A stretch of DNA of 64,000 nt from Candidatus Binatota bacterium (GCA_024276575.1 JAJRWY010000312.1:1161-65160); one strand, 5' to 3'; shown: positions 31,398-36,168, numbered from the stretch's first letter. Translations and numbers: made by a program. The notes: generated from the sequence alone by a model not told the origin.

Positions 31398-31703
31398 ATG
31401 TGGCCTTTCGACAATAGCTTCTATGAGGAAATATCGGCTCGGTTCGAAACTCTGCTCAAGGACGGTGAGGACGCCGGAAATACCAATGATCTGTCGGCTT
31501 TGCTTGCTCCGGTGGATCCTTTCAACCGTTCACCCTTGTTTACACCGGTCGTGAAAGCTCTGGGCGTCGCTGCGTTGGTAGCAATGACCGGGCTTGCCGC
31601 AGCCGGTTTAGTCGTGGCCTTCGTTGCTTTCCTCGGTCTTTACTTCTTGCTTACCGAAGTATTCGGTTACGAGCTTTCTCTGGCACCGCTGCAACCGATG
31701 TAG
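31398..31703 (+). CDS. Small hypothetical membrane protein (C-terminal TM helix)
   Basis: 101-aa ORF 5 nt after the preceding gene, with a hydrophobic C-terminus ALGVAALVAMTGLAAAGLVVAFVAFLGLYFLL. Confidence 0.45.
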   Translation: MWPFDNSFYEEISARFETLLKDGEDAGNTNDLSALLAPVDPFNRSPLFTPVVKALGVAALVAMTGLAAAGLVVAFVAFLGLYFLLTEVFGYELSLAPLQPM

Positions 31704-32332
31704 ATTGCGTCTTGCCGTACGGCGAGACCGAGTATTAGAGCACAGGCGACGGCTGCCGCATCGCATGCCGCCACCGCGTGCCGCCACTGGCGCAGGTGCT
31801 TGTCGTAGCCACCGGCCTGCCGGCTGCGGTCTGAATAACGCGCGGGGAAATCGAGACCGGATGGTCCGTGATCTTGCGTTCGACGGTGGCTTGGCAAGGC
31901 GCCGTAGTTACGACAATCGCTAAACAGATCAGGAAGCGGTGCCTGTGGATGCACTCCGCAAACGAAACCGCAACCACCGCCATCCGGCTCAAAAGTGTAC
32001 CATACAATCGGTACCGAAGTTTTGCGGGCATGTTCGATTTGGTTCAGATCCGAATGCTCGACTCCCGCTACTATGTAGCAGGCGATAGAAGTGGATGTTT
32101 GTGTAGCTTTGCGACCTCGTCCCCGGAGGCTTTCAATGCCTGGACCATCGCTGCGCGAGGATACGCTGACCCCCGCTGCTCTCAAGTAAAGGGATGCTTG
32201 TTCCACGCCGCGAGGGTGCCCGAGCAGTACCACTGTCGCCGCCAGTAACTTTCCCTGGCCTTCCGCACCGATGCCGGGGATGATGATCTGTCGCGCATAG
32301 CGTTCAATGCTCTCATCATCGAGAGTAGCCAT
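31667..32332 (-). CDS. Degenerate ThiF/MoeB-like (E1-like) protein that retains the N-terminal RYxRQ...GxEGQxKL motif but lacks the GxGxxG loop; possible pseudogene or accessory subunit
   Basis: The N-terminus ERYARQIIIPGIGAEGQGKLLAATVVLLG matches E1 enzymes. It is followed by HPRGVEQASLYLRAAGV instead of GxGxxG...ALYLAGAGV. The downstream sequence is diverged, AT-richer, and has a poor RBS. Confidence 0.4.
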   Translation of the reverse strand: MATLDDESIERYARQIIIPGIGAEGQGKLLAATVVLLGHPRGVEQASLYLRAAGVSVSSRSDGPGIESLRGRGRKATQTSTSIACYIVAGVEHSDLNQIEHARKTSVPIVWYTFEPDGGGCGFVCGVHPQAPLPDLFSDCRNYGALPSHRRTQDHGPSGLDFPARYSDRSRQAGGYDKHLRQWRHAVAACDAAAVACALILGLAVRQDAIYIGCSGARESS

Positions 32333-32359: not shown

Positions 32360-32599
32360 TCATTCTATGACGTTCTTCTCTATCGGCTCGACAGTGACGC
32401 CTTGCTCGGCGATCCATCGTACGGCCCGGTCAATCTCGTCTTGCTCACCTTCGAGTTCGAGAGCCATGATGCCCACATGCTCAGAAATCGAAGCACCGCG
32501 TATATTGGTGACCACGCGGAACTTGTGTCCGACGTGGTAAACGATCGGCTCCTTTATCTTCTCTTGGCTGTAGGTCAGGTAGAAACGTTGAAGTGTCAT
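32360..32599 (-). CDS. Stand-alone NIL-domain protein (MetN C-terminal-like ferredoxin-fold domain)
   Basis: 79 aa with the TNIRGASISEHVGIMALELEG motif characteristic of NIL domains. The ATG overlaps the cysM-like stop (ATGA) with a GAGGAG SD. Confidence 0.6.
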   Translation of the reverse strand: MTLQRFYLTYSQEKIKEPIVYHVGHKFRVVTNIRGASISEHVGIMALELEGEQDEIDRAVRWIAEQGVTVEPIEKNVIE

Positions 32600-33579
32600 T
32601 GGTTCTCCTCCGCGGCGGCGAGTTCATGGCGGTCGCGCCAGCCGGTCCACAGATTCGTAGATAAGTAGCGGTCGCCAAAATCGGGTAGCACTACCACCAC
32701 GCACCCGGATTGCAACTCCGCAGCCACTTCCAGTGCTGCGACTACCGCGGCACCGGAGGACTGTCCGACCAGCAGACCTTCTTTGGCGGCCAACTCGTAA
32801 ACCATCTCGTAAGCGGCATCGGTAGCCACACCCACCTTGCGGTCGAAGCCGGATTCGTCGTAAATACCCGGCACGATCGAGCTGCCCATGTGCTTCAAGC
32901 CTTCTATCCCGTGGAAGGCGTCGTCGGGCTCCACGGCTATTATTTCGACCTCAGGCTTGCGCGATCTCAAGTAGCGGCCGCAGCCCATTACGGTTCCGCT
33001 GGTACCGATCGTGGCGAGAAAGTGAGAGACGCGGCCGGCAGTTTGCTCCCAGATCTCGGGTCCTGTGGTCAGGAAGTGGGCCTCCGGATTGGCCGGGTTG
33101 TAGTACTGGTCGGGTTTGAAGTACGCGTCGGGATCGGCGTCGAACATCTTTTTGGCCAAGACGATGGAGCCGTCGGACCCTTCCATCGGATCGGACTCGA
33201 CTATTTCGGCGCCGTAAGCCGCAATCACCCGCAATCGTTCGCGTGAGGCGTTGGCGGGTATCACTAATTTTACCGGATATCCCAGCGCAGCGCCGATCAT
33301 CGCCAGCGCGATGCCGGTGTTGCCGGAAGTAGAATCGAGAATGGTTTTGCCGGGGCGTAAGTGTCCGTCTTCCAATCCACGACGCACCATGTTCCAGGCC
33401 GGGCGGTCTTTGACCGAACCGCCGGGGTTGAAGCCCTCGACTTTGGCGTACACTTCTACACCGCCGGCCAAGTGCGGGGTTACACCTCGCAGTTGGAGCA
33501 ACGGTGTGTCGCCGATCAAGTCGAGTATGCCTGTGGCCTCCGCCTCATTAAGGGTCGGCTGTTGGCGAGTCCGGTGCAC
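32596..33579 (-). CDS. cysM: Cysteine synthase-family PLP enzyme (CysK/CysM type; candidate thiocarboxylate-dependent O-phosphoserine sulfhydrylase)
   Basis: ILDLIGDTPLLQL and the PLP-Lys motif KVEGFNPGGSVKDR, plus the glycine-rich TSGNTG loop. The GTG start overlaps the tail of the upstream carrier gene. Confidence 0.85.
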   Translation of the reverse strand: MHRTRQQPTLNEAEATGILDLIGDTPLLQLRGVTPHLAGGVEVYAKVEGFNPGGSVKDRPAWNMVRRGLEDGHLRPGKTILDSTSGNTGIALAMIGAALGYPVKLVIPANASRERLRVIAAYGAEIVESDPMEGSDGSIVLAKKMFDADPDAYFKPDQYYNPANPEAHFLTTGPEIWEQTAGRVSHFLATIGTSGTVMGCGRYLRSRKPEVEIIAVEPDDAFHGIEGLKHMGSSIVPGIYDESGFDRKVGVATDAAYEMVYELAAKEGLLVGQSSGAAVVAALEVAAELQSGCVVVVLPDFGDRYLSTNLWTGWRDRHELAAAEENQ

Positions 33580-33854
33580 GCGCCGCCGGCGATAGCGGGA
33601 ACGATGGAGATTTCGTCGCCGTCTTTGACGGCGGACTCCAGGTCATCAAGAAAGCGAATGTCATCGCCGTTCACGTAAACATTTACGAAACGCCGTACTG
33701 AACCGTCGCGTTCGCAGATGCGCTCCTTGAGGCCTGGATGGGCTGCCTCGACGCTGTCGAGAACCGCGGCCACGGTCGAGCCTTCTGCGTCGACGGCTTC
33801 GTTGCCGCCTGTAAACTTTCTCAGGGGTGTGGGGATTCTTACCCGGACTGCCAT
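33516..33854 (-). CDS. MoaD/ThiS-family sulfur-carrier protein (CysO/MetO-like) with a 21-residue extension after the Gly-Gly
   Basis: MAVRVRIPTPLRKFTGG...VNGDDIRFLDDLESAVKDGDEISIVPAIAGG (GG at residues 90-91), followed in-frame by ACTGLANSRPLMRRRPQAYST before the stop. Strong SD TAGGAGGAAC upstream of the ATG at 33852-33854. Confidence 0.7.
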   Translation of the reverse strand: MAVRVRIPTPLRKFTGGNEAVDAEGSTVAAVLDSVEAAHPGLKERICERDGSVRRFVNVYVNGDDIRFLDDLESAVKDGDEISIVPAIAGGACTGLANSRPLMRRRPQAYST

Positions 33855-33891: not shown

Positions 33892-35184
33892 TCACGAACC
33901 GGTGGCCGGAGAAGCAATCGTGGAAGCCTGATCGCCGCCGGCTGTCTTGCCGGCTTCAAGACGCTCGTAAAGACGGTCGAATTCGTCGAGACGTGCTGCG
34001 ATATCGTGGGTGACCGGAACCGAATCACGAACCGCCTCGAGGGTCTTGTAGCCGTTGCCGGTAATAGAGATGACGATCGACTCATCTCGGGGTATGCGGC
34101 CTTGCTCTATGAGTTTCTTGGTAACCGCCACCGTGGTGCCCCCGGCCGGCTCGGTAAACACACCTTCCGTACGCGCCAGTAGTTTGATTGCTTCCACTAT
34201 TTCTTCGTCGCTAGCTGATTCACCCCATCCTCCGGAATCCCTGACCGCTCCGAGAACGTAATAGCCGTCGGCCGGGTTGCCGATCGCGATCGACTTGGCG
34301 ATGGTATGAGGCTTTACCGGTTCGATAAGGTCGGTTCCCCGGTGAAGGGCGTTGACGACCGGAGCGCAACCGGCGGCTTGCGCGGAGTATATCTTGAATC
34401 CGCTCTGCTCGACCAAGCCTACCCGCTGCAGCTCTTCAAAGGACTTGGCGACTTTGGGCAAGATGGTGCCGCCGGCGGTAGGAACGACGATGTGTTGGGG
34501 GAGCTTCCAGCCGAGTTGTTCGGCCACTTCGAATCCGTAAGTTTTGGCTCCTTCGGTGTAAAAAGGCCGCAGGTTGATGTTTGCGAAAGCCCAGCCGTAC
34601 TTGTCCGCGATCTCGGTGCACAGGCGGTTAACGTCGTCATAATTGCCGGAGATCGCGACCGGGACCGGGTTGTATATGGCCGATCCCACCACCTTGCCTT
34701 GTTCGAGGTTGTCGGGGATGAAGATGAAGCACCGCAGGCCGGCGCGTGCTGCATGGGCGGAAACGGAATTGGCTAGGTTGCCGGTAGAGGCGCATGCGAC
34801 GGTTTCGAAGCCGAACTCGACCGCTTTGGTCAGCGCGACCGAGACTACGCGGTCCTTGTAGGAGAAGGTCGGGTGGTTGACCGAATCGTCTTTTACGTAG
34901 AGTTCCGAGACGCCGAGCACTTCTGCCAAGCGATCGGCTTTGAGCAAGGGAGTAAAACCTGAATACAGGCCGATACGCGGCTCGGACTCCACCGGAAGCA
35001 ACTCGCGATATCTCCACAGGTTGGGTGGCCTCGCTTCAATGGTCTTGCGATCGACCGCAGCCGATATCTTGTCATAGTCGTATTCTACTTCGAGGGGGCC
35101 AAAGCAGTATTCACAGACGTGGTAGGGCTTGAGTTCGTAAGCCTCGCCACATTCACGGCACTTGAGGCCTTTTACAAAAGACAT
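33892..35184 (-). CDS. Threonine synthase-family PLP enzyme with an N-terminal zinc ribbon (ThrC, or a MetM-like O-phosphohomoserine-dependent homocysteine synthase)
   Basis: N-terminus CRECGE...CEYCFG and the PLP-Lys motif HPTFSYKDR. AAGGAGAT SD before the ATG at 35182-35184. The track ORF's 47-aa N-terminal extension was rejected. Confidence 0.8.
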   Translation of the reverse strand: MSFVKGLKCRECGEAYELKPYHVCEYCFGPLEVEYDYDKISAAVDRKTIEARPPNLWRYRELLPVESEPRIGLYSGFTPLLKADRLAEVLGVSELYVKDDSVNHPTFSYKDRVVSVALTKAVEFGFETVACASTGNLANSVSAHAARAGLRCFIFIPDNLEQGKVVGSAIYNPVPVAISGNYDDVNRLCTEIADKYGWAFANINLRPFYTEGAKTYGFEVAEQLGWKLPQHIVVPTAGGTILPKVAKSFEELQRVGLVEQSGFKIYSAQAAGCAPVVNALHRGTDLIEPVKPHTIAKSIAIGNPADGYYVLGAVRDSGGWGESASDEEIVEAIKLLARTEGVFTEPAGGTTVAVTKKLIEQGRIPRDESIVISITGNGYKTLEAVRDSVPVTHDIAARLDEFDRLYERLEAGKTAGGDQASTIASPATGS

Positions 35185-35198
35185 GGTAGTTATCTCCT

Positions 35199-35957
35199 TC
35201 AGCGGTCGATGCCGGGCGCTGCAGCGGCGGGCTCGTAACCGCGGGGTCGTGAACGGGTTTCCCCCGAGCGGGAGCATCGCGGGCAAGCGGGATCCCTGGG
35301 GAAATATACATGGCGCCAACGGCACCCTGACAATTCATAGATATTCATGCGGCCGGGACACAGGCTTTTGTCTCCACCAAGGTAACGAAGCGCGTCTTGC
35401 GCTTGTGCGGTTCCCACCAAGCCGGCCACTGGTGCGAGAATGCCCATAGCTGAACAGCCGCCGTCGGCTTCCTGCGGGTGGTCGTCGGGGAAAGCGCATG
35501 CGAGGCAGGCCGACACGCCCGGCACCACGGTCATCCATTGGCCGGTGGTTCTGATCACACCGCCGTAACAGAAAGCGGTGCCGGTCGAGACTGCAACGGC
35601 GTTTATCATGAATTTCGTGGCCGGGTCGTCACAAGCGTCGATCACGAAATCATGAGAGGAAACGAGGCTCTCGGCGTTGCCGGTGTTCAACGTATCTTCG
35701 ATGGGACGAATTTCAGTGGTAACAGGGCCGCCGGCGGATGCGGCTAGAGCCTTACGCGCGGCCTCGGCCTTGGGTGCTCCGACGTCGCTGTCGCCGAACA
35801 AGACCTGCCGCTGCAGGTTCGAAAGCTCGATGCGGTCGGGGTCGATAATCGTGAGTTTGGCAACTCCGGCGCCCACGAGCATGCGCGCGGCAGCGCAACC
35901 GAGGGCGCCGACGCCCACCAACAGAACCGAATCTTTTGTTTGCTGCTGCAAGTACAA
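35199..35957 (-). CDS. ThiF/MoeB/MoeZ-type E1-like sulfur-carrier-protein adenylyltransferase
   Basis: VLLVGVGALGCAAARMLVGAGV (GxGxxG), DPDRIELSNLQRQ, and zinc motifs CxxC...CxxC. Only a TTG start at 35955-35957 is available, and it abuts the riboswitch terminator U-tract. Confidence 0.8.
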   Translation of the reverse strand: MYLQQQTKDSVLLVGVGALGCAAARMLVGAGVAKLTIIDPDRIELSNLQRQVLFGDSDVGAPKAEAARKALAASAGGPVTTEIRPIEDTLNTGNAESLVSSHDFVIDACDDPATKFMINAVAVSTGTAFCYGGVIRTTGQWMTVVPGVSACLACAFPDDHPQEADGGCSAMGILAPVAGLVGTAQAQDALRYLGGDKSLCPGRMNIYELSGCRWRHVYFPRDPACPRCSRSGETRSRPRGYEPAAAAPGIDR

Positions 35958-36011: not shown

Positions 36012-36168
36012 TCTCCTTATCTTTCACCCTCTTTGCATTTGCGTGAACTCGATTACGCGCTCACCGCAACGCTAAGGTGCGGGACTTAGCACCTGCCGCC
36101 CGCTTGCGCAGGCCGGTTGCTGTGGCTTCACAGGGCCCATTCCCTCCGCCACTCTGAATAAGGAACGG
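36012..36168 (-). promoter_or_regulatory. SAM-I (S-box) riboswitch aptamer
   Basis: The minus-strand RNA reads UUCCUUAUUCAGAGUGGCGGAGGGAAUGGGCCCUGUGAAGCCACAGCAACC...CAGGUGCUAAGUCCCGCA...GAAAGAUAAGGAGAGG. This matches the S-box consensus CUUAUCAAGAGNGGYGGAGGGAYUGGCCCNAUGAARCCCRGCAACC...GGUGCYAAUUCCNGC...GAGAUAAG, including P1 pairing CUUAU/AUAAG. Confidence 0.8.

What the first reader, a model, noticed from the sequence alone, without database searches (positions are those of the whole stretch)
33516..33854. Sulfur-carrier protein has a 21-aa tail after Gly-Gly, encoded in a 64-nt overlap with the cysM-like gene; no JAMM protease nearby
The MoaD/ThiS-like ORF reaches its diglycine (..VPAIAGG) and then continues ACTGLANSRPLMRRRPQAYST before stopping inside the next gene. 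The cysM-like GTG begins 2 nt after the GG codons, in the -1 frame. A free GG C-terminus is required for adenylation and thiocarboxylation, so the tail must be removed. In CysO, HcyS and QbsE this is done by a JAMM/MPN+ protease (Mec+, HcyD, QbsD), but none is encoded in this window. Alternatives are a lost stop codon, a sequencing frameshift, or a relic or programmed frameshift producing a carrier-CysM fusion.
Basis: partly seen in the sequence, partly recalled or inferred. Interest (0 to 1): 0.7.

Follow-up and report, generated by a model that had tools for sequence, protein, structure and literature searches.

The report
Sulfur-carrier tail from lost stop codon
The 21-residue tail on this sulfur-carrier protein is real in the sequence, but it is best explained by one base change that removed the usual stop codon, in a protein family where a short disposable tail after Gly-Gly is normal, so it is an ordinary variant of a known pathway.

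Summary
A 112-aa ThiS/MoaD-type carrier (33854..33516, minus strand) reaches Gly-Gly at residues 90-91 and continues for 21 residues. Its last 64 nt overlap the cysM-like ORF, whose GTG is at 33579. No JAMM gene lies in the 64-kb window.

The tail is not a special design. Among 155 distinct orthologous loci, 83% encode at least one residue after GG: 96 have one residue, 27 have none, and 32 have more (2-26 residues, plus one in-frame fusion of 80). The extra sequence is not conserved.

Two close relatives end GG-Ala-TGA or GG-Arg-TGA, with the cysM GTG overlapping that stop as GTGA; a third ends GG-Ala-Ser-Ala-TGA with the same overlap. The window reads GCG TGC at the homologous position. One base (33576) removes the stop, and translation runs 20 more codons out of frame over the cysM 5' end. 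The same kind of stop loss is seen independently in other members, for example L092 versus L093.

No carrier-CysM fusion or frameshift is supported. The operon is E1, ThrC-like (MetM-like), carrier, CysM, NIL and a degenerate E1 paralogue. A SAM riboswitch precedes it. JAMM is in the operon in only 7 of 163 loci, and unlinked Mec-like JAMM genes exist in Binatia MAGs. Interest is low.

The parts
36014..36164 (-). SAM-I (S-box) riboswitch aptamer upstream of the operon. A terminator-like hairpin (cctcttcc...ggaagagg followed by T7, about 35989-35955) follows and abuts the E1 start.
   Evidence: Rfam RF00162 scores 75.8 bits against a gathering score of 44.4, E 5.5e-16. The same riboswitch lies upstream of the E1 gene in 7 of 8 related loci scanned. 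The hairpin was read directly.
35199..35957 (-). ThiF/MoeB-type E1 adenylyltransferase of 252 aa. It lacks the N-terminal RYxRQ arginine-finger segment.
   Evidence: Pfam ThiF E 1.9e-60, matching the profile only from position 20. NCBIfam ThiF/MoeB models match from positions 20-28. The riboswitch terminator leaves no room for a longer N-terminus.
33892..35184 (-). Threonine-synthase-like PLP enzyme with an N-terminal Zn-ribbon. By context it is a MetM-like, thiocarboxylate-dependent homocysteine synthase.
   Evidence: Pfam PALP E 7.5e-64. NCBIfam PRK08197 threonine synthase scores 312.6 bits against a cut-off of 303. ATG 35184 with a GGAG Shine-Dalgarno sequence. It is adjacent to the carrier across related loci. 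The MetM analogy comes from 10.1101/2024.10.14.618325.
33582..33854 (-). Core of the ThiS/MoaD-type sulfur carrier, residues 1-91, ending in Gly-Gly.
   Evidence: It is 71-92% identical to the 120 best homologues. Against L001 there are 46 synonymous and 7 non-synonymous codon differences.
33516..33581 (-). Tail after GG: Ala (33581-33579), then 20 read-through codons (33578-33519) and TGA (33518-33516). The codon TGC at 33578-33576 occupies the place of the ancestral TGA stop. The changed base is 33576.
   Evidence: Window GCG TGC compared with L001 GCG TGA, L164-166 AGG TGA and L005 GCG TCG GCG TGA. No homologue shares the tail sequence.
32596..33579 (-). CysM-like PLP-dependent sulfhydrylase of 327 aa from GTG 33579. 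Its first 64 nt overlap the carrier ORF.
   Evidence: Pfam PALP E 1.3e-69. NCBIfam cysM TIGR01138 scores 361.5 bits, below its cut-off of 394.2. N-terminal extensions before the LDLIG core are present in orthologues.
32360..32599 (-). NIL-domain protein of 79 aa. Its ATG overlaps the cysM stop as ATGA.
   Evidence: Pfam NIL E 6e-15. The overlap was read. It is conserved after cysM in many related loci.
31667..32332 (-). Degenerate E1-like paralogue of 221 aa. It keeps the RYARQ...GxxGQ N-terminal segment but has a ruined Gly-rich loop (LLGHPRG).
   Evidence: NCBIfam MoeB positions 3-57, E 3.8e-9. AF2 model pLDDT 77.7; the best PDB fold matches are ThiF 1zud/1zfn (E 2.5e-4) and MoeB. Its presence goes with an E1 that lacks RYxRQ in 20 loci versus 0.

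Best explanation
**What the locus is.** The carrier gene belongs to a widespread operon controlled by a SAM riboswitch: E1, ThrC-like/MetM-like enzyme, ThiS-type carrier, CysM-like enzyme, NIL protein. The operon is found in Candidatus Binatia, 'Deltaproteobacteria', Myxococcota, Verrucomicrobiota and others. It most likely makes homocysteine and cysteine from a protein thiocarboxylate.

**What is normal in this family.** The primary translation product normally carries a short, unconserved extension after Gly-Gly, most often one residue.

**What happened here.** In the window's closest relatives the carrier ends GG-X-TGA, and the cysM GTG overlaps that stop as GTGA. This is a translational-coupling junction like the ATGA between cysM and the NIL gene. 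In the window the A of that TGA is a C (base 33576, TGA to TGC). The ribosome therefore reads 20 more codons in a frame that is not the cysM frame, until the next chance TGA. The 21-aa tail is thus the usual one-residue tail plus read-through. It is not a designed pro-peptide and not a fusion.

**How the carrier still works (inferred, not shown).** The carrier remains usable because the pathway already needs a hydrolase that cuts after GG. In the known CysO and HcyS systems, a Mec/HcyD-type JAMM removes cysteine or homocysteine from the carrier-GG-amino-acid adduct in every cycle. That enzyme does not care what follows GG. In this clade it would be encoded elsewhere in the genome.

**Shown:** the anatomy, the family-wide tails, the homologous TGA in relatives, recurrent stop losses, absence of JAMM in the window, and unlinked JAMM genes in Binatia MAGs. 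**Inferred:** that the tail is removed, and by which enzyme.
For: - Domain end and tail.
- Tail-length distribution in 155 distinct loci: 0 residues in 27, 1 in 96, 2 in 12, 3 in 5, 4 in 5, 6-12 in 8, 26 in 1, 80 in 1. The first residue after GG is highly variable. Most of the 120 best protein hits are 92 aa, that is GG plus one variable residue.
- Homologous junctions: L001 GCG TGA (92% aa identity), L164-166 AGG TGA with a called 4-nt overlap to cysM (84%), and L005 GCG TCG GCG TGA (77%), compared with window GCG TGC.
- Independent stop losses between near-identical relatives. L092 has TCA TAG and L093 has TCA CAG at 98.9% nt identity, turning tail S into SQKPKGHGRRFT, which runs into the cysM ATG. 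L053 has CGT TAG where L026 has CGT GAG and L124 has CGT AAT.
- The carrier core is under purifying selection: 46 synonymous against 7 non-synonymous codon differences versus L001.
- JAMM is in the operon in only 7 of 163 loci. Mec-like Prok-JAB proteins annotated from Binatia MAGs are encoded away from any carrier operon.
- SAM riboswitch upstream.
- Known precedents for tails removed by JAMM: QbsE-CF/QbsD and CxnE-decapeptide/CxnF (PMC5925218). The title and abstract listing of PMC8832034 reports that DRJAMM cleaves a MoaD-MoaE fusion (the paper was not read). Mec is needed for MetO maturation in the MetM/MetO pathway (10.1101/2024.10.14.618325).
Against: - The window and its nearest relative L001 share only 77% nt identity in the carrier core, and the sequences diverge right after GCGTG. 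The 'single substitution' is a parsimony inference, not an observed mutation.
- No raw reads could be inspected, so a base-call or consensus error at 33576 is not excluded.
- No JAMM or other GG-specific hydrolase could be looked for in the rest of this genome.
- Nothing shows that a 21-aa tail is actually cleaved.
- Losing the GTGA junction might lower CysM translation. That would make the allele mildly deleterious rather than neutral.
Confidence: 0.8

Rival explanations
1. Sequencing or assembly error. The true sequence has TGA at 33578-33576, and the real protein is 92 aa (GG-Ala), as in the relatives.
For: Only one base separates the two states, and three related junctions end in TGA overlapped by the cysM GTG: L001 and L164-166 at the homologous position, L005 two codons further downstream. 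The 112-aa protein occurs on a single NCBI contig of 69,691 bp and in no other assembly.
Against: Substitution errors in consensus assemblies are far rarer than natural stop losses in this family. Tails of at least 3 residues occur in 20 of 155 loci, and stop loss is seen between 98.9%-identical strains. No indel is involved.
Confidence: 0.1
2. The extended carrier is a dead or impaired allele. The tail is not removed, the carrier cannot be adenylated, and the operon is decaying in this lineage.
For: The window also lacks the radical-SAM and Na/sulfate-symporter genes that follow the operon in the syntenic locus L002. Its degenerate E1 paralogue carries lineage-specific insertions of low model confidence. 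The coupling junction to cysM is lost.
Against: All six operon genes are intact ORFs with strong family matches. The riboswitch is intact at 75.8 bits. The carrier core shows 46 synonymous against 7 non-synonymous codon differences. Longer tails exist in other intact operons.
Confidence: 0.07
3. The tail and the overlap are functional. One version is a pro-peptide that gates activation. Another is a coupling device in which ribosomes terminating at TGA 33518-33516 re-initiate on the overlapping in-frame TTG (cTTGAtc, 33519) or back on the GTG. A third is a programmed frameshift that yields a carrier-CysM fusion.
For: The carrier stop overlaps an in-frame cysM TTG by 2 nt. Overlapping junctions are typical of this operon.
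Against: The tail sequence is unique to this contig. The TTG lies inside the conserved LDLIG motif, so using it would truncate CysM. No fusion occurs in 155 loci, and cysM lies in all three relative frames. The tail length is what chance predicts.
Confidence: 0.03

Closest known systems
CysO-CysM-Mec+ cysteine pathway of Mycobacterium tuberculosis (Burns et al. 2005; from my own knowledge)
   Same: A ThiS/MoaD-type carrier sits directly upstream of a CysM-type PLP enzyme. An E1-type adenylyltransferase activates it. The GG C-terminus carries the thiocarboxylate. The CysO-Cys adduct (GG plus one residue) is hydrolysed by a JAMM.
   Different: No JAMM is in the operon here. The E1 is in the operon and has no rhodanese domain. 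A ThrC-like enzyme, a NIL protein and a degenerate E1 paralogue are added. The operon is under a SAM riboswitch. The carrier is encoded with a tail. CysM scores below the NCBIfam cysM cut-off.
MetM/MetO thiocarboxylate-dependent homocysteine synthesis of Streptomyces albulus (Hasebe et al. 2024, as summarised in 10.1101/2024.10.14.618325)
   Same: A threonine-synthase homologue is paired with a sulfur-carrier protein. The carrier needs maturation by Mec and activation by an E1 (MoeZ). The role is in methionine supply, which fits the SAM riboswitch here.
   Different: No direct sequence comparison with MetM or MetO was possible. Here one carrier apparently serves both a MetM-like and a CysM-like enzyme. 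No Mec is nearby.
HcyS-Ala/HcyD/HcyF/MetY of Wolinella succinogenes (Krishnamoorthy and Begley 2011; from my own knowledge)
   Same: The carrier is encoded as GG plus one residue, which is the commonest form in this family. It is used for homocysteine synthesis. The extra residue and the homocysteine adduct are removed by the same JAMM.
   Different: HcyD is encoded with the carrier. The sulfhydrylase is a MetY type rather than a ThrC-like or CysM-like type.
QbsE (GG-CF)/QbsD and CxnE (GG plus decapeptide)/CxnF in secondary metabolism (PMC5925218)
   Same: These are sulfur carriers encoded with C-terminal extensions of 2 to 10 residues. The extensions are unconserved in sequence and are proposed or shown to be cut after GG by a JAMM.
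   Different: Those JAMM genes are in the cluster, and the pathways make a siderophore and an antibiotic. The 21-aa tail here is longer and is explained by read-through into the next gene.

Membership tests
ThiS/MoaD sulfur-carrier proteins (PF02597; NCBIfam SAMP1/MoaD_arch) | Beta-grasp ThiS-family domain scoring above the curated thresholds | tested here: met
   Pfam 68.5 bits against 22.5, full profile 1-76. NF041918 scores 69.4 against 60, and TIGR01687 scores 55.5 against 49.5.
ThiS/MoaD sulfur-carrier proteins (PF02597; NCBIfam SAMP1/MoaD_arch) | Gly-Gly at the end of the domain | tested here: met
   AIAGG at residues 87-91. It is invariant in the alignment of 24 homologues and in all related loci.
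ThiS/MoaD sulfur-carrier proteins (PF02597; NCBIfam SAMP1/MoaD_arch) | Gly-Gly is the free C-terminus of the encoded protein | tested here: not met
   21 residues follow GG. The same feature is unmet in 128 of 155 orthologues. It therefore marks a precursor form and does not exclude membership.
ThiS/MoaD sulfur-carrier proteins (PF02597; NCBIfam SAMP1/MoaD_arch) | Adenylation and thiocarboxylation by a cognate E1 | not testable with these tools
   An E1 gene is present in the operon. Its activity cannot be computed.
CysO-CysM-Mec+ pathway | Carrier gene adjacent to a CysM-type PLP sulfhydrylase | tested here: met
   cysM-like ORF immediately downstream. A cysM-like hit follows the carrier in most related loci whose flanks reach that far.
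CysO-CysM-Mec+ pathway | CysM equivalog score | tested here: inconclusive
   TIGR01138 scores 361.5 bits against a cut-off of 394.2. cysKM scores 343.0 against 344.15. The protein is CysM-like but below the trusted cut-offs.
CysO-CysM-Mec+ pathway | Mec+/JAMM hydrolase encoded with the carrier | tested here: not met
   No JAMM in the 64-kb window (best HMM E-value 4.1). Present in only 7 of 163 related loci.
MetM/MetO homocysteine pathway | Threonine-synthase homologue paired with a sulfur-carrier gene | tested here: met
   A ThrC-like gene lies directly upstream of the carrier. This pairing recurs in the related loci.
MetM/MetO homocysteine pathway | Orthology to the characterised S. albulus MetM and MetO | not tested
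MetM/MetO homocysteine pathway | Link to methionine metabolism | tested here: met
   A SAM-I riboswitch lies upstream of the operon in the window and in 7 of 8 relatives. A NIL domain, as found in MetN, is in the operon.
Pro-carriers matured by a cluster-encoded JAMM (HcyS/HcyD, QbsE/QbsD, CxnE/CxnF) | C-terminal extension after GG | tested here: met
   A 21-aa tail. The family norm is at least 1 aa.
Pro-carriers matured by a cluster-encoded JAMM (HcyS/HcyD, QbsE/QbsD, CxnE/CxnF) | JAMM protease in the same cluster | tested here: not met
   Mec-like JAMM genes in Binatia MAGs are unlinked to the operon.
Pro-carriers matured by a cluster-encoded JAMM (HcyS/HcyD, QbsE/QbsD, CxnE/CxnF) | Cleavage after GG exposing the carboxylate | not testable with these tools
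   Needs mass spectrometry or an in vitro assay.

The most novel reading that the evidence does not exclude
In this Binatia-type operon family the enzyme that cuts after Gly-Gly is not an operon-encoded JAMM. It removes tails of any length (0 to 38 residues seen, and possibly whole fused domains), and it must also release the amino-acid product in every catalytic cycle. It might not be a JAMM at all, but an unlinked or still unrecognised hydrolase. On that reading the window's 21-aa tail would be a natural substrate revealing a length-independent, ubiquitin-like precursor-processing step in bacterial primary sulfur metabolism. My evidence does not exclude this. It does make the simpler reading, an unlinked Mec-like JAMM as found in Binatia MAGs, more likely.
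Probability: 0.08. Interest if true: 0.55.

Novelty: new member of a known kind. Interest (0 to 1): 0.2.

Why it matters
For annotation, the carrier should be read as a precursor. Its tail is disposable, and the overlap with cysM is a by-product of losing a GTGA start/stop junction. It is not a fusion or a recoding signal.

More generally, the comparison shows that in this large, mostly uncultured family a residue or more after Gly-Gly is the rule, and that stop losses recur. This implies a hydrolase specific for GG and indifferent to what follows. That fits the known Mec/HcyD logic, in which the pathway intermediate is itself GG plus one amino acid.

The finding does not open a long-standing question. 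The more interesting leads lie beside it: the operon under SAM-riboswitch control, and the apparently two-subunit E1.

Tried and rejected
- **Exact-protein look-up.** The look-up of encoding contigs found no gene record for the 112-aa protein. The listing of cluster members showed that it exists once, on a 69,691-bp NCBI contig. No independent assembly could be compared.
- **GC3 by frame in the 64-nt overlap.** The values were 0.71 and 0.70, which is not informative.
- **Source genome.** The genome contigs and metagenome-contig scans did not recover the source genome or any relative closer than 77% at the protein level. The closest relative, L001, is an 893-bp contig that ends 45 nt after the stop.
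- **Carrier-CysM fusion or frameshift.** Rejected: no in-frame continuation occurs in 155 loci.
- **TTG 33519 as the cysM start.** Rejected because it lies inside the conserved LDLIG motif.
- **JAMM search in the window.** A regex and an HMM gave only chance matches. My recalled Mec+ sequence was used only as a lead to find JAMM genes in related loci.
- **Matching a Binatia orphan JAMM to an operon in the same assembly.** No shared accession prefixes were found among the loci retrieved.
- **Primary literature.** The Hasebe 2024 paper is not in the held library. I relied on the summary in the GapMind preprint.

Full report
**1. What is in the sequence**

All the genes concerned lie on the minus strand.

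- The carrier ORF starts at ATG 33854, 8 nt after AGGAGG, and ends at TGA 33518-33516. It encodes 112 aa.
- The Pfam ThiS profile is matched end to end by residues 5-91 (68.5 bits). NCBIfam SAMP1 and MoaD_arch pass their cut-offs over the same residues.
- The domain therefore ends at Gly90-Gly91 (codons 33587-33582). The remaining 21 residues, ACTGLANSRPLMRRRPQAYST, lie outside the domain.
- The next gene is a CysM-like PLP enzyme (PALP, E 1.3e-69). Its ORF opens at GTG 33579-33577, 2 nt after the GG codons and in another frame, so the two ORFs share 64 nt.
- GTG 33579 is the only start codon upstream of the conserved LDLIGxTPL core. The only alternative, TTG 33519, lies inside that motif.
- An HMM built from seven JAMM genes of related loci, run unfiltered on all six-frame ORFs of the window, found nothing (best E 4.1). 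It recovered all seven seed loci, the sequences it was built from, and no other JAMM among the related loci.

**2. A tail after GG is the norm in this family**

- Most of the 120 best protein homologues (71-92% identical) are 92 aa, that is GG plus one residue, and that residue is highly variable. Only two of the single-domain proteins end at GG, and about a dozen carry tails of 2 to 38 residues.
- I then fetched DNA for 80 genome loci and 80 metagenome loci and read each ORF to its stop.
- Among 155 distinct complete loci the tail lengths are: 0 in 27, 1 in 96, 2 in 12, 3 in 5, 4 in 5, 6-12 in 8, 26 in 1, and 80 in 1. The 80-residue case is an in-frame run into the NIL gene.
- None of these tails resembles the window's tail.
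- A residue or more after GG is therefore the rule (83% of loci). The window sits at the long end of a continuous, unconserved distribution.

**3. Where the 21 residues come from**

The junctions in the closest relatives are:

| Locus | Carrier identity to window | Sequence after GG |
|---|---|---|
| L001 | 92% aa | GCG TGA |
| L164-166 | 84% aa | AGG TGA |
| L005 | 77% aa | GCG TCG GCG TGA |
| Window | - | GCG TGC ACC ... |

- In all three relatives the cysM GTG overlaps the stop as GTGA. Gene callers also call a 4-nt overlap in L164-166.
- In the window the homologous stop has become a Cys codon through one base, 33576. Translation then continues out of frame over the cysM 5' end to the next TGA.
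- At 60% G+C about 0.03 stops per codon are expected, so 20 read-through codons is an unremarkable length.
- The same kind of event is visible elsewhere in the family between near-identical sequences. L092 (TCA TAG) and L093 (TCA CAG) share 98.9% nt identity; the tail goes from S to SQKPKGHGRRFT and overlaps the cysM ATG. L053 (CGT TAG) contrasts with L026 (CGT GAG) and L124 (CGT AAT).
- The carrier core is under purifying selection: 46 synonymous against 7 non-synonymous codon differences versus L001.
- I could not inspect reads, so an error at this one base remains possible. Natural stop losses are common enough in the family that a real change is much more likely.
- No frameshift is needed. 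No carrier-CysM fusion occurs in any locus, and cysM lies in all three relative frames with a stop always between the two genes.

**4. What the locus does**

- The gene order is E1 (ThiF family), ThrC-like PLP enzyme with an N-terminal Zn-ribbon, carrier, CysM-like enzyme, NIL-domain protein, and a 221-aa ORF. The order up to CysM is the commonest arrangement among the related loci, and the NIL gene and the sixth gene follow in subsets of them.
- A SAM-I riboswitch (RF00162, 75.8 bits) lies at 36014-36164. It is followed by a terminator-like hairpin and T-run that abut the E1 start.
- The same riboswitch precedes the operon in 7 of 8 relatives scanned.
- The GapMind 2026 preprint summarises the Streptomyces pathway as follows. 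The ThrC homologue MetM makes homocysteine from O-phosphohomoserine and the thiocarboxylated carrier MetO. Mec is needed for MetO maturation and MoeZ acts as the E1.
- By context, this operon is a MetM/MetO-like homocysteine route combined with a CysO/CysM-like cysteine route that shares one carrier. This is an inference from gene content and the riboswitch, not a demonstrated activity.

**5. Who removes the tail**

- In the characterised systems a JAMM cuts after GG. Mec+ hydrolyses CysO-Cys, HcyD trims HcyS-Ala and releases homocysteine (both from my own knowledge), QbsD removes CF, and CxnF is proposed to remove a decapeptide (PMC5925218). The abstract of PMC8832034 says DRJAMM was reported to cleave DRMoaD-MoaE (seen only in the search listing).
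- The pathway intermediate is itself carrier-GG plus one amino acid. A GG-specific hydrolase is therefore part of the catalytic cycle, and an encoded tail costs little. This explains why tails drift freely in length and sequence.
- In this operon family a JAMM follows cysM in only 7 of 163 loci, all from a branch whose CysM is about 53% identical. Its absence from the window is a family trait, not a local anomaly.
- A profile of those JAMMs finds Mec-like Prok-JAB proteins annotated from Candidatus Binatia/Binataceae MAGs.
- In the three I looked up, the JAMM gene sits away from any carrier operon. In two of them it follows an ApbA-like reductase gene.
- The best genome hits to the window's carrier are Binatia MAGs. 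An unlinked JAMM is therefore the most economical candidate. I could not search the rest of this genome.

**6. Verdict**

- It is a new member of a known kind, a pro-form sulfur carrier, with an unusually long but accidental extension. Interest is low.

**7. Things seen beside the finding**

- The operon's E1 lacks the N-terminal RYxRQ segment that carries the arginine finger. ThiF Arg11 and MoeB Arg14 act on the neighbouring subunit (PMC13139853).
- The 221-aa ORF downstream has exactly that segment, followed by a degenerate nucleotide loop. Its model (pLDDT 77.7) matches ThiF and MoeB best.
- Across loci, 20 have an E1 lacking RYxRQ together with the paralogue, 49 have a complete E1 and no paralogue, 5 lack both, and none has both.
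- This looks like a two-subunit bacterial E1, analogous to the heterodimeric eukaryotic E1s or to Tcd1-Tcd2. It deserves its own follow-up.

Noticed in passing
window 36014-36164 (-), hairpin about 35989-35955: A SAM-I riboswitch (RF00162, 75.8 bits) with a terminator-like hairpin and T7 run lies directly before the E1 start. The whole carrier operon is therefore under SAM control. The same riboswitch precedes the operon in 7 of 8 related loci scanned.
   Followed up: yes
window 35957-35199 (-) and 32332-31667 (-); loci: The operon's E1 lacks the N-terminal RYxRQ arginine-finger segment. A downstream 221-aa degenerate E1-like paralogue retains it (RYARQ...GxxGQ) but has a ruined Gly loop. Across loci: 20 have a truncated E1 plus the paralogue, 49 have a complete E1 without the paralogue, 5 have neither, and none has both. 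The paralogue model (pLDDT 77.7) matches ThiF and MoeB best. This suggests a heterodimeric bacterial E1 (arginine finger in PMC13139853).
   Followed up: partly
proteins P0002, P0004, P0017, P0018: Tandem di-carrier proteins of 182-188 aa: unit 1 ends ...AIAGG and runs straight into unit 2 (VDLAVRIP...AIAGG). This is a head-to-tail arrangement like polyubiquitin, found on short metagenome contigs.
   Followed up: no
L078 (Desulfuromonadales MAG), carrier ORF end: The carrier ORF runs in frame from GG through 'APIKKKIY' into the NIL-domain gene, giving an 80-aa extension. No cysM hit lies within 1.5 kb downstream of the carrier. This is probably another stop loss, this time in frame with the next gene.
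   Followed up: partly
L066 3509-4873, L070 10691-11803, L072 10708-11805: Stop-to-stop ORFs of 366-455 aa downstream of the carrier carry the JAMM motif (HSHPDH...S..D) near their C-terminal end and span the region of the CysM hit. This suggests possible CysM-Mec fusion proteins, but the shared reading frame was not checked.
   Followed up: no
L167-L171 (Binatia MAG contigs): Orphan Mec-like Prok-JAB genes lie away from any carrier operon. In L169-L171 the JAMM gene overlaps by 4 nt the end of an ApbA/ketopantoate-reductase-like gene. This recalls the cxnC (reductase), cxnE (carrier), cxnF (JAMM) set of the chuangxinmycin cluster.
   Followed up: no
L092 vs L093; L053 vs L026/L124/L127: Near-identical relatives differ by loss of the carrier stop codon (TAG to CAG; TAG to GAG or AAT). 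This gives 12-aa and 7-aa tails. In L093 the tail overlaps the cysM start.
   Followed up: yes
window about 31400-31700 compared with L002 11994-14684: The syntenic locus L002 has a radical-SAM gene and a Na/sulfate-symporter-family gene after the degenerate E1 paralogue. The window lacks both. Its paralogue is longer (221 aa against about 160) through two lineage-specific insertions that are modelled with low confidence (residues about 60-80 and 147-170).
   Followed up: no
window 32599-32596: The cysM stop and the NIL-gene start overlap as ATGA. This is the same kind of coupling junction as the ancestral GTGA between the carrier gene and cysM.
   Followed up: yes
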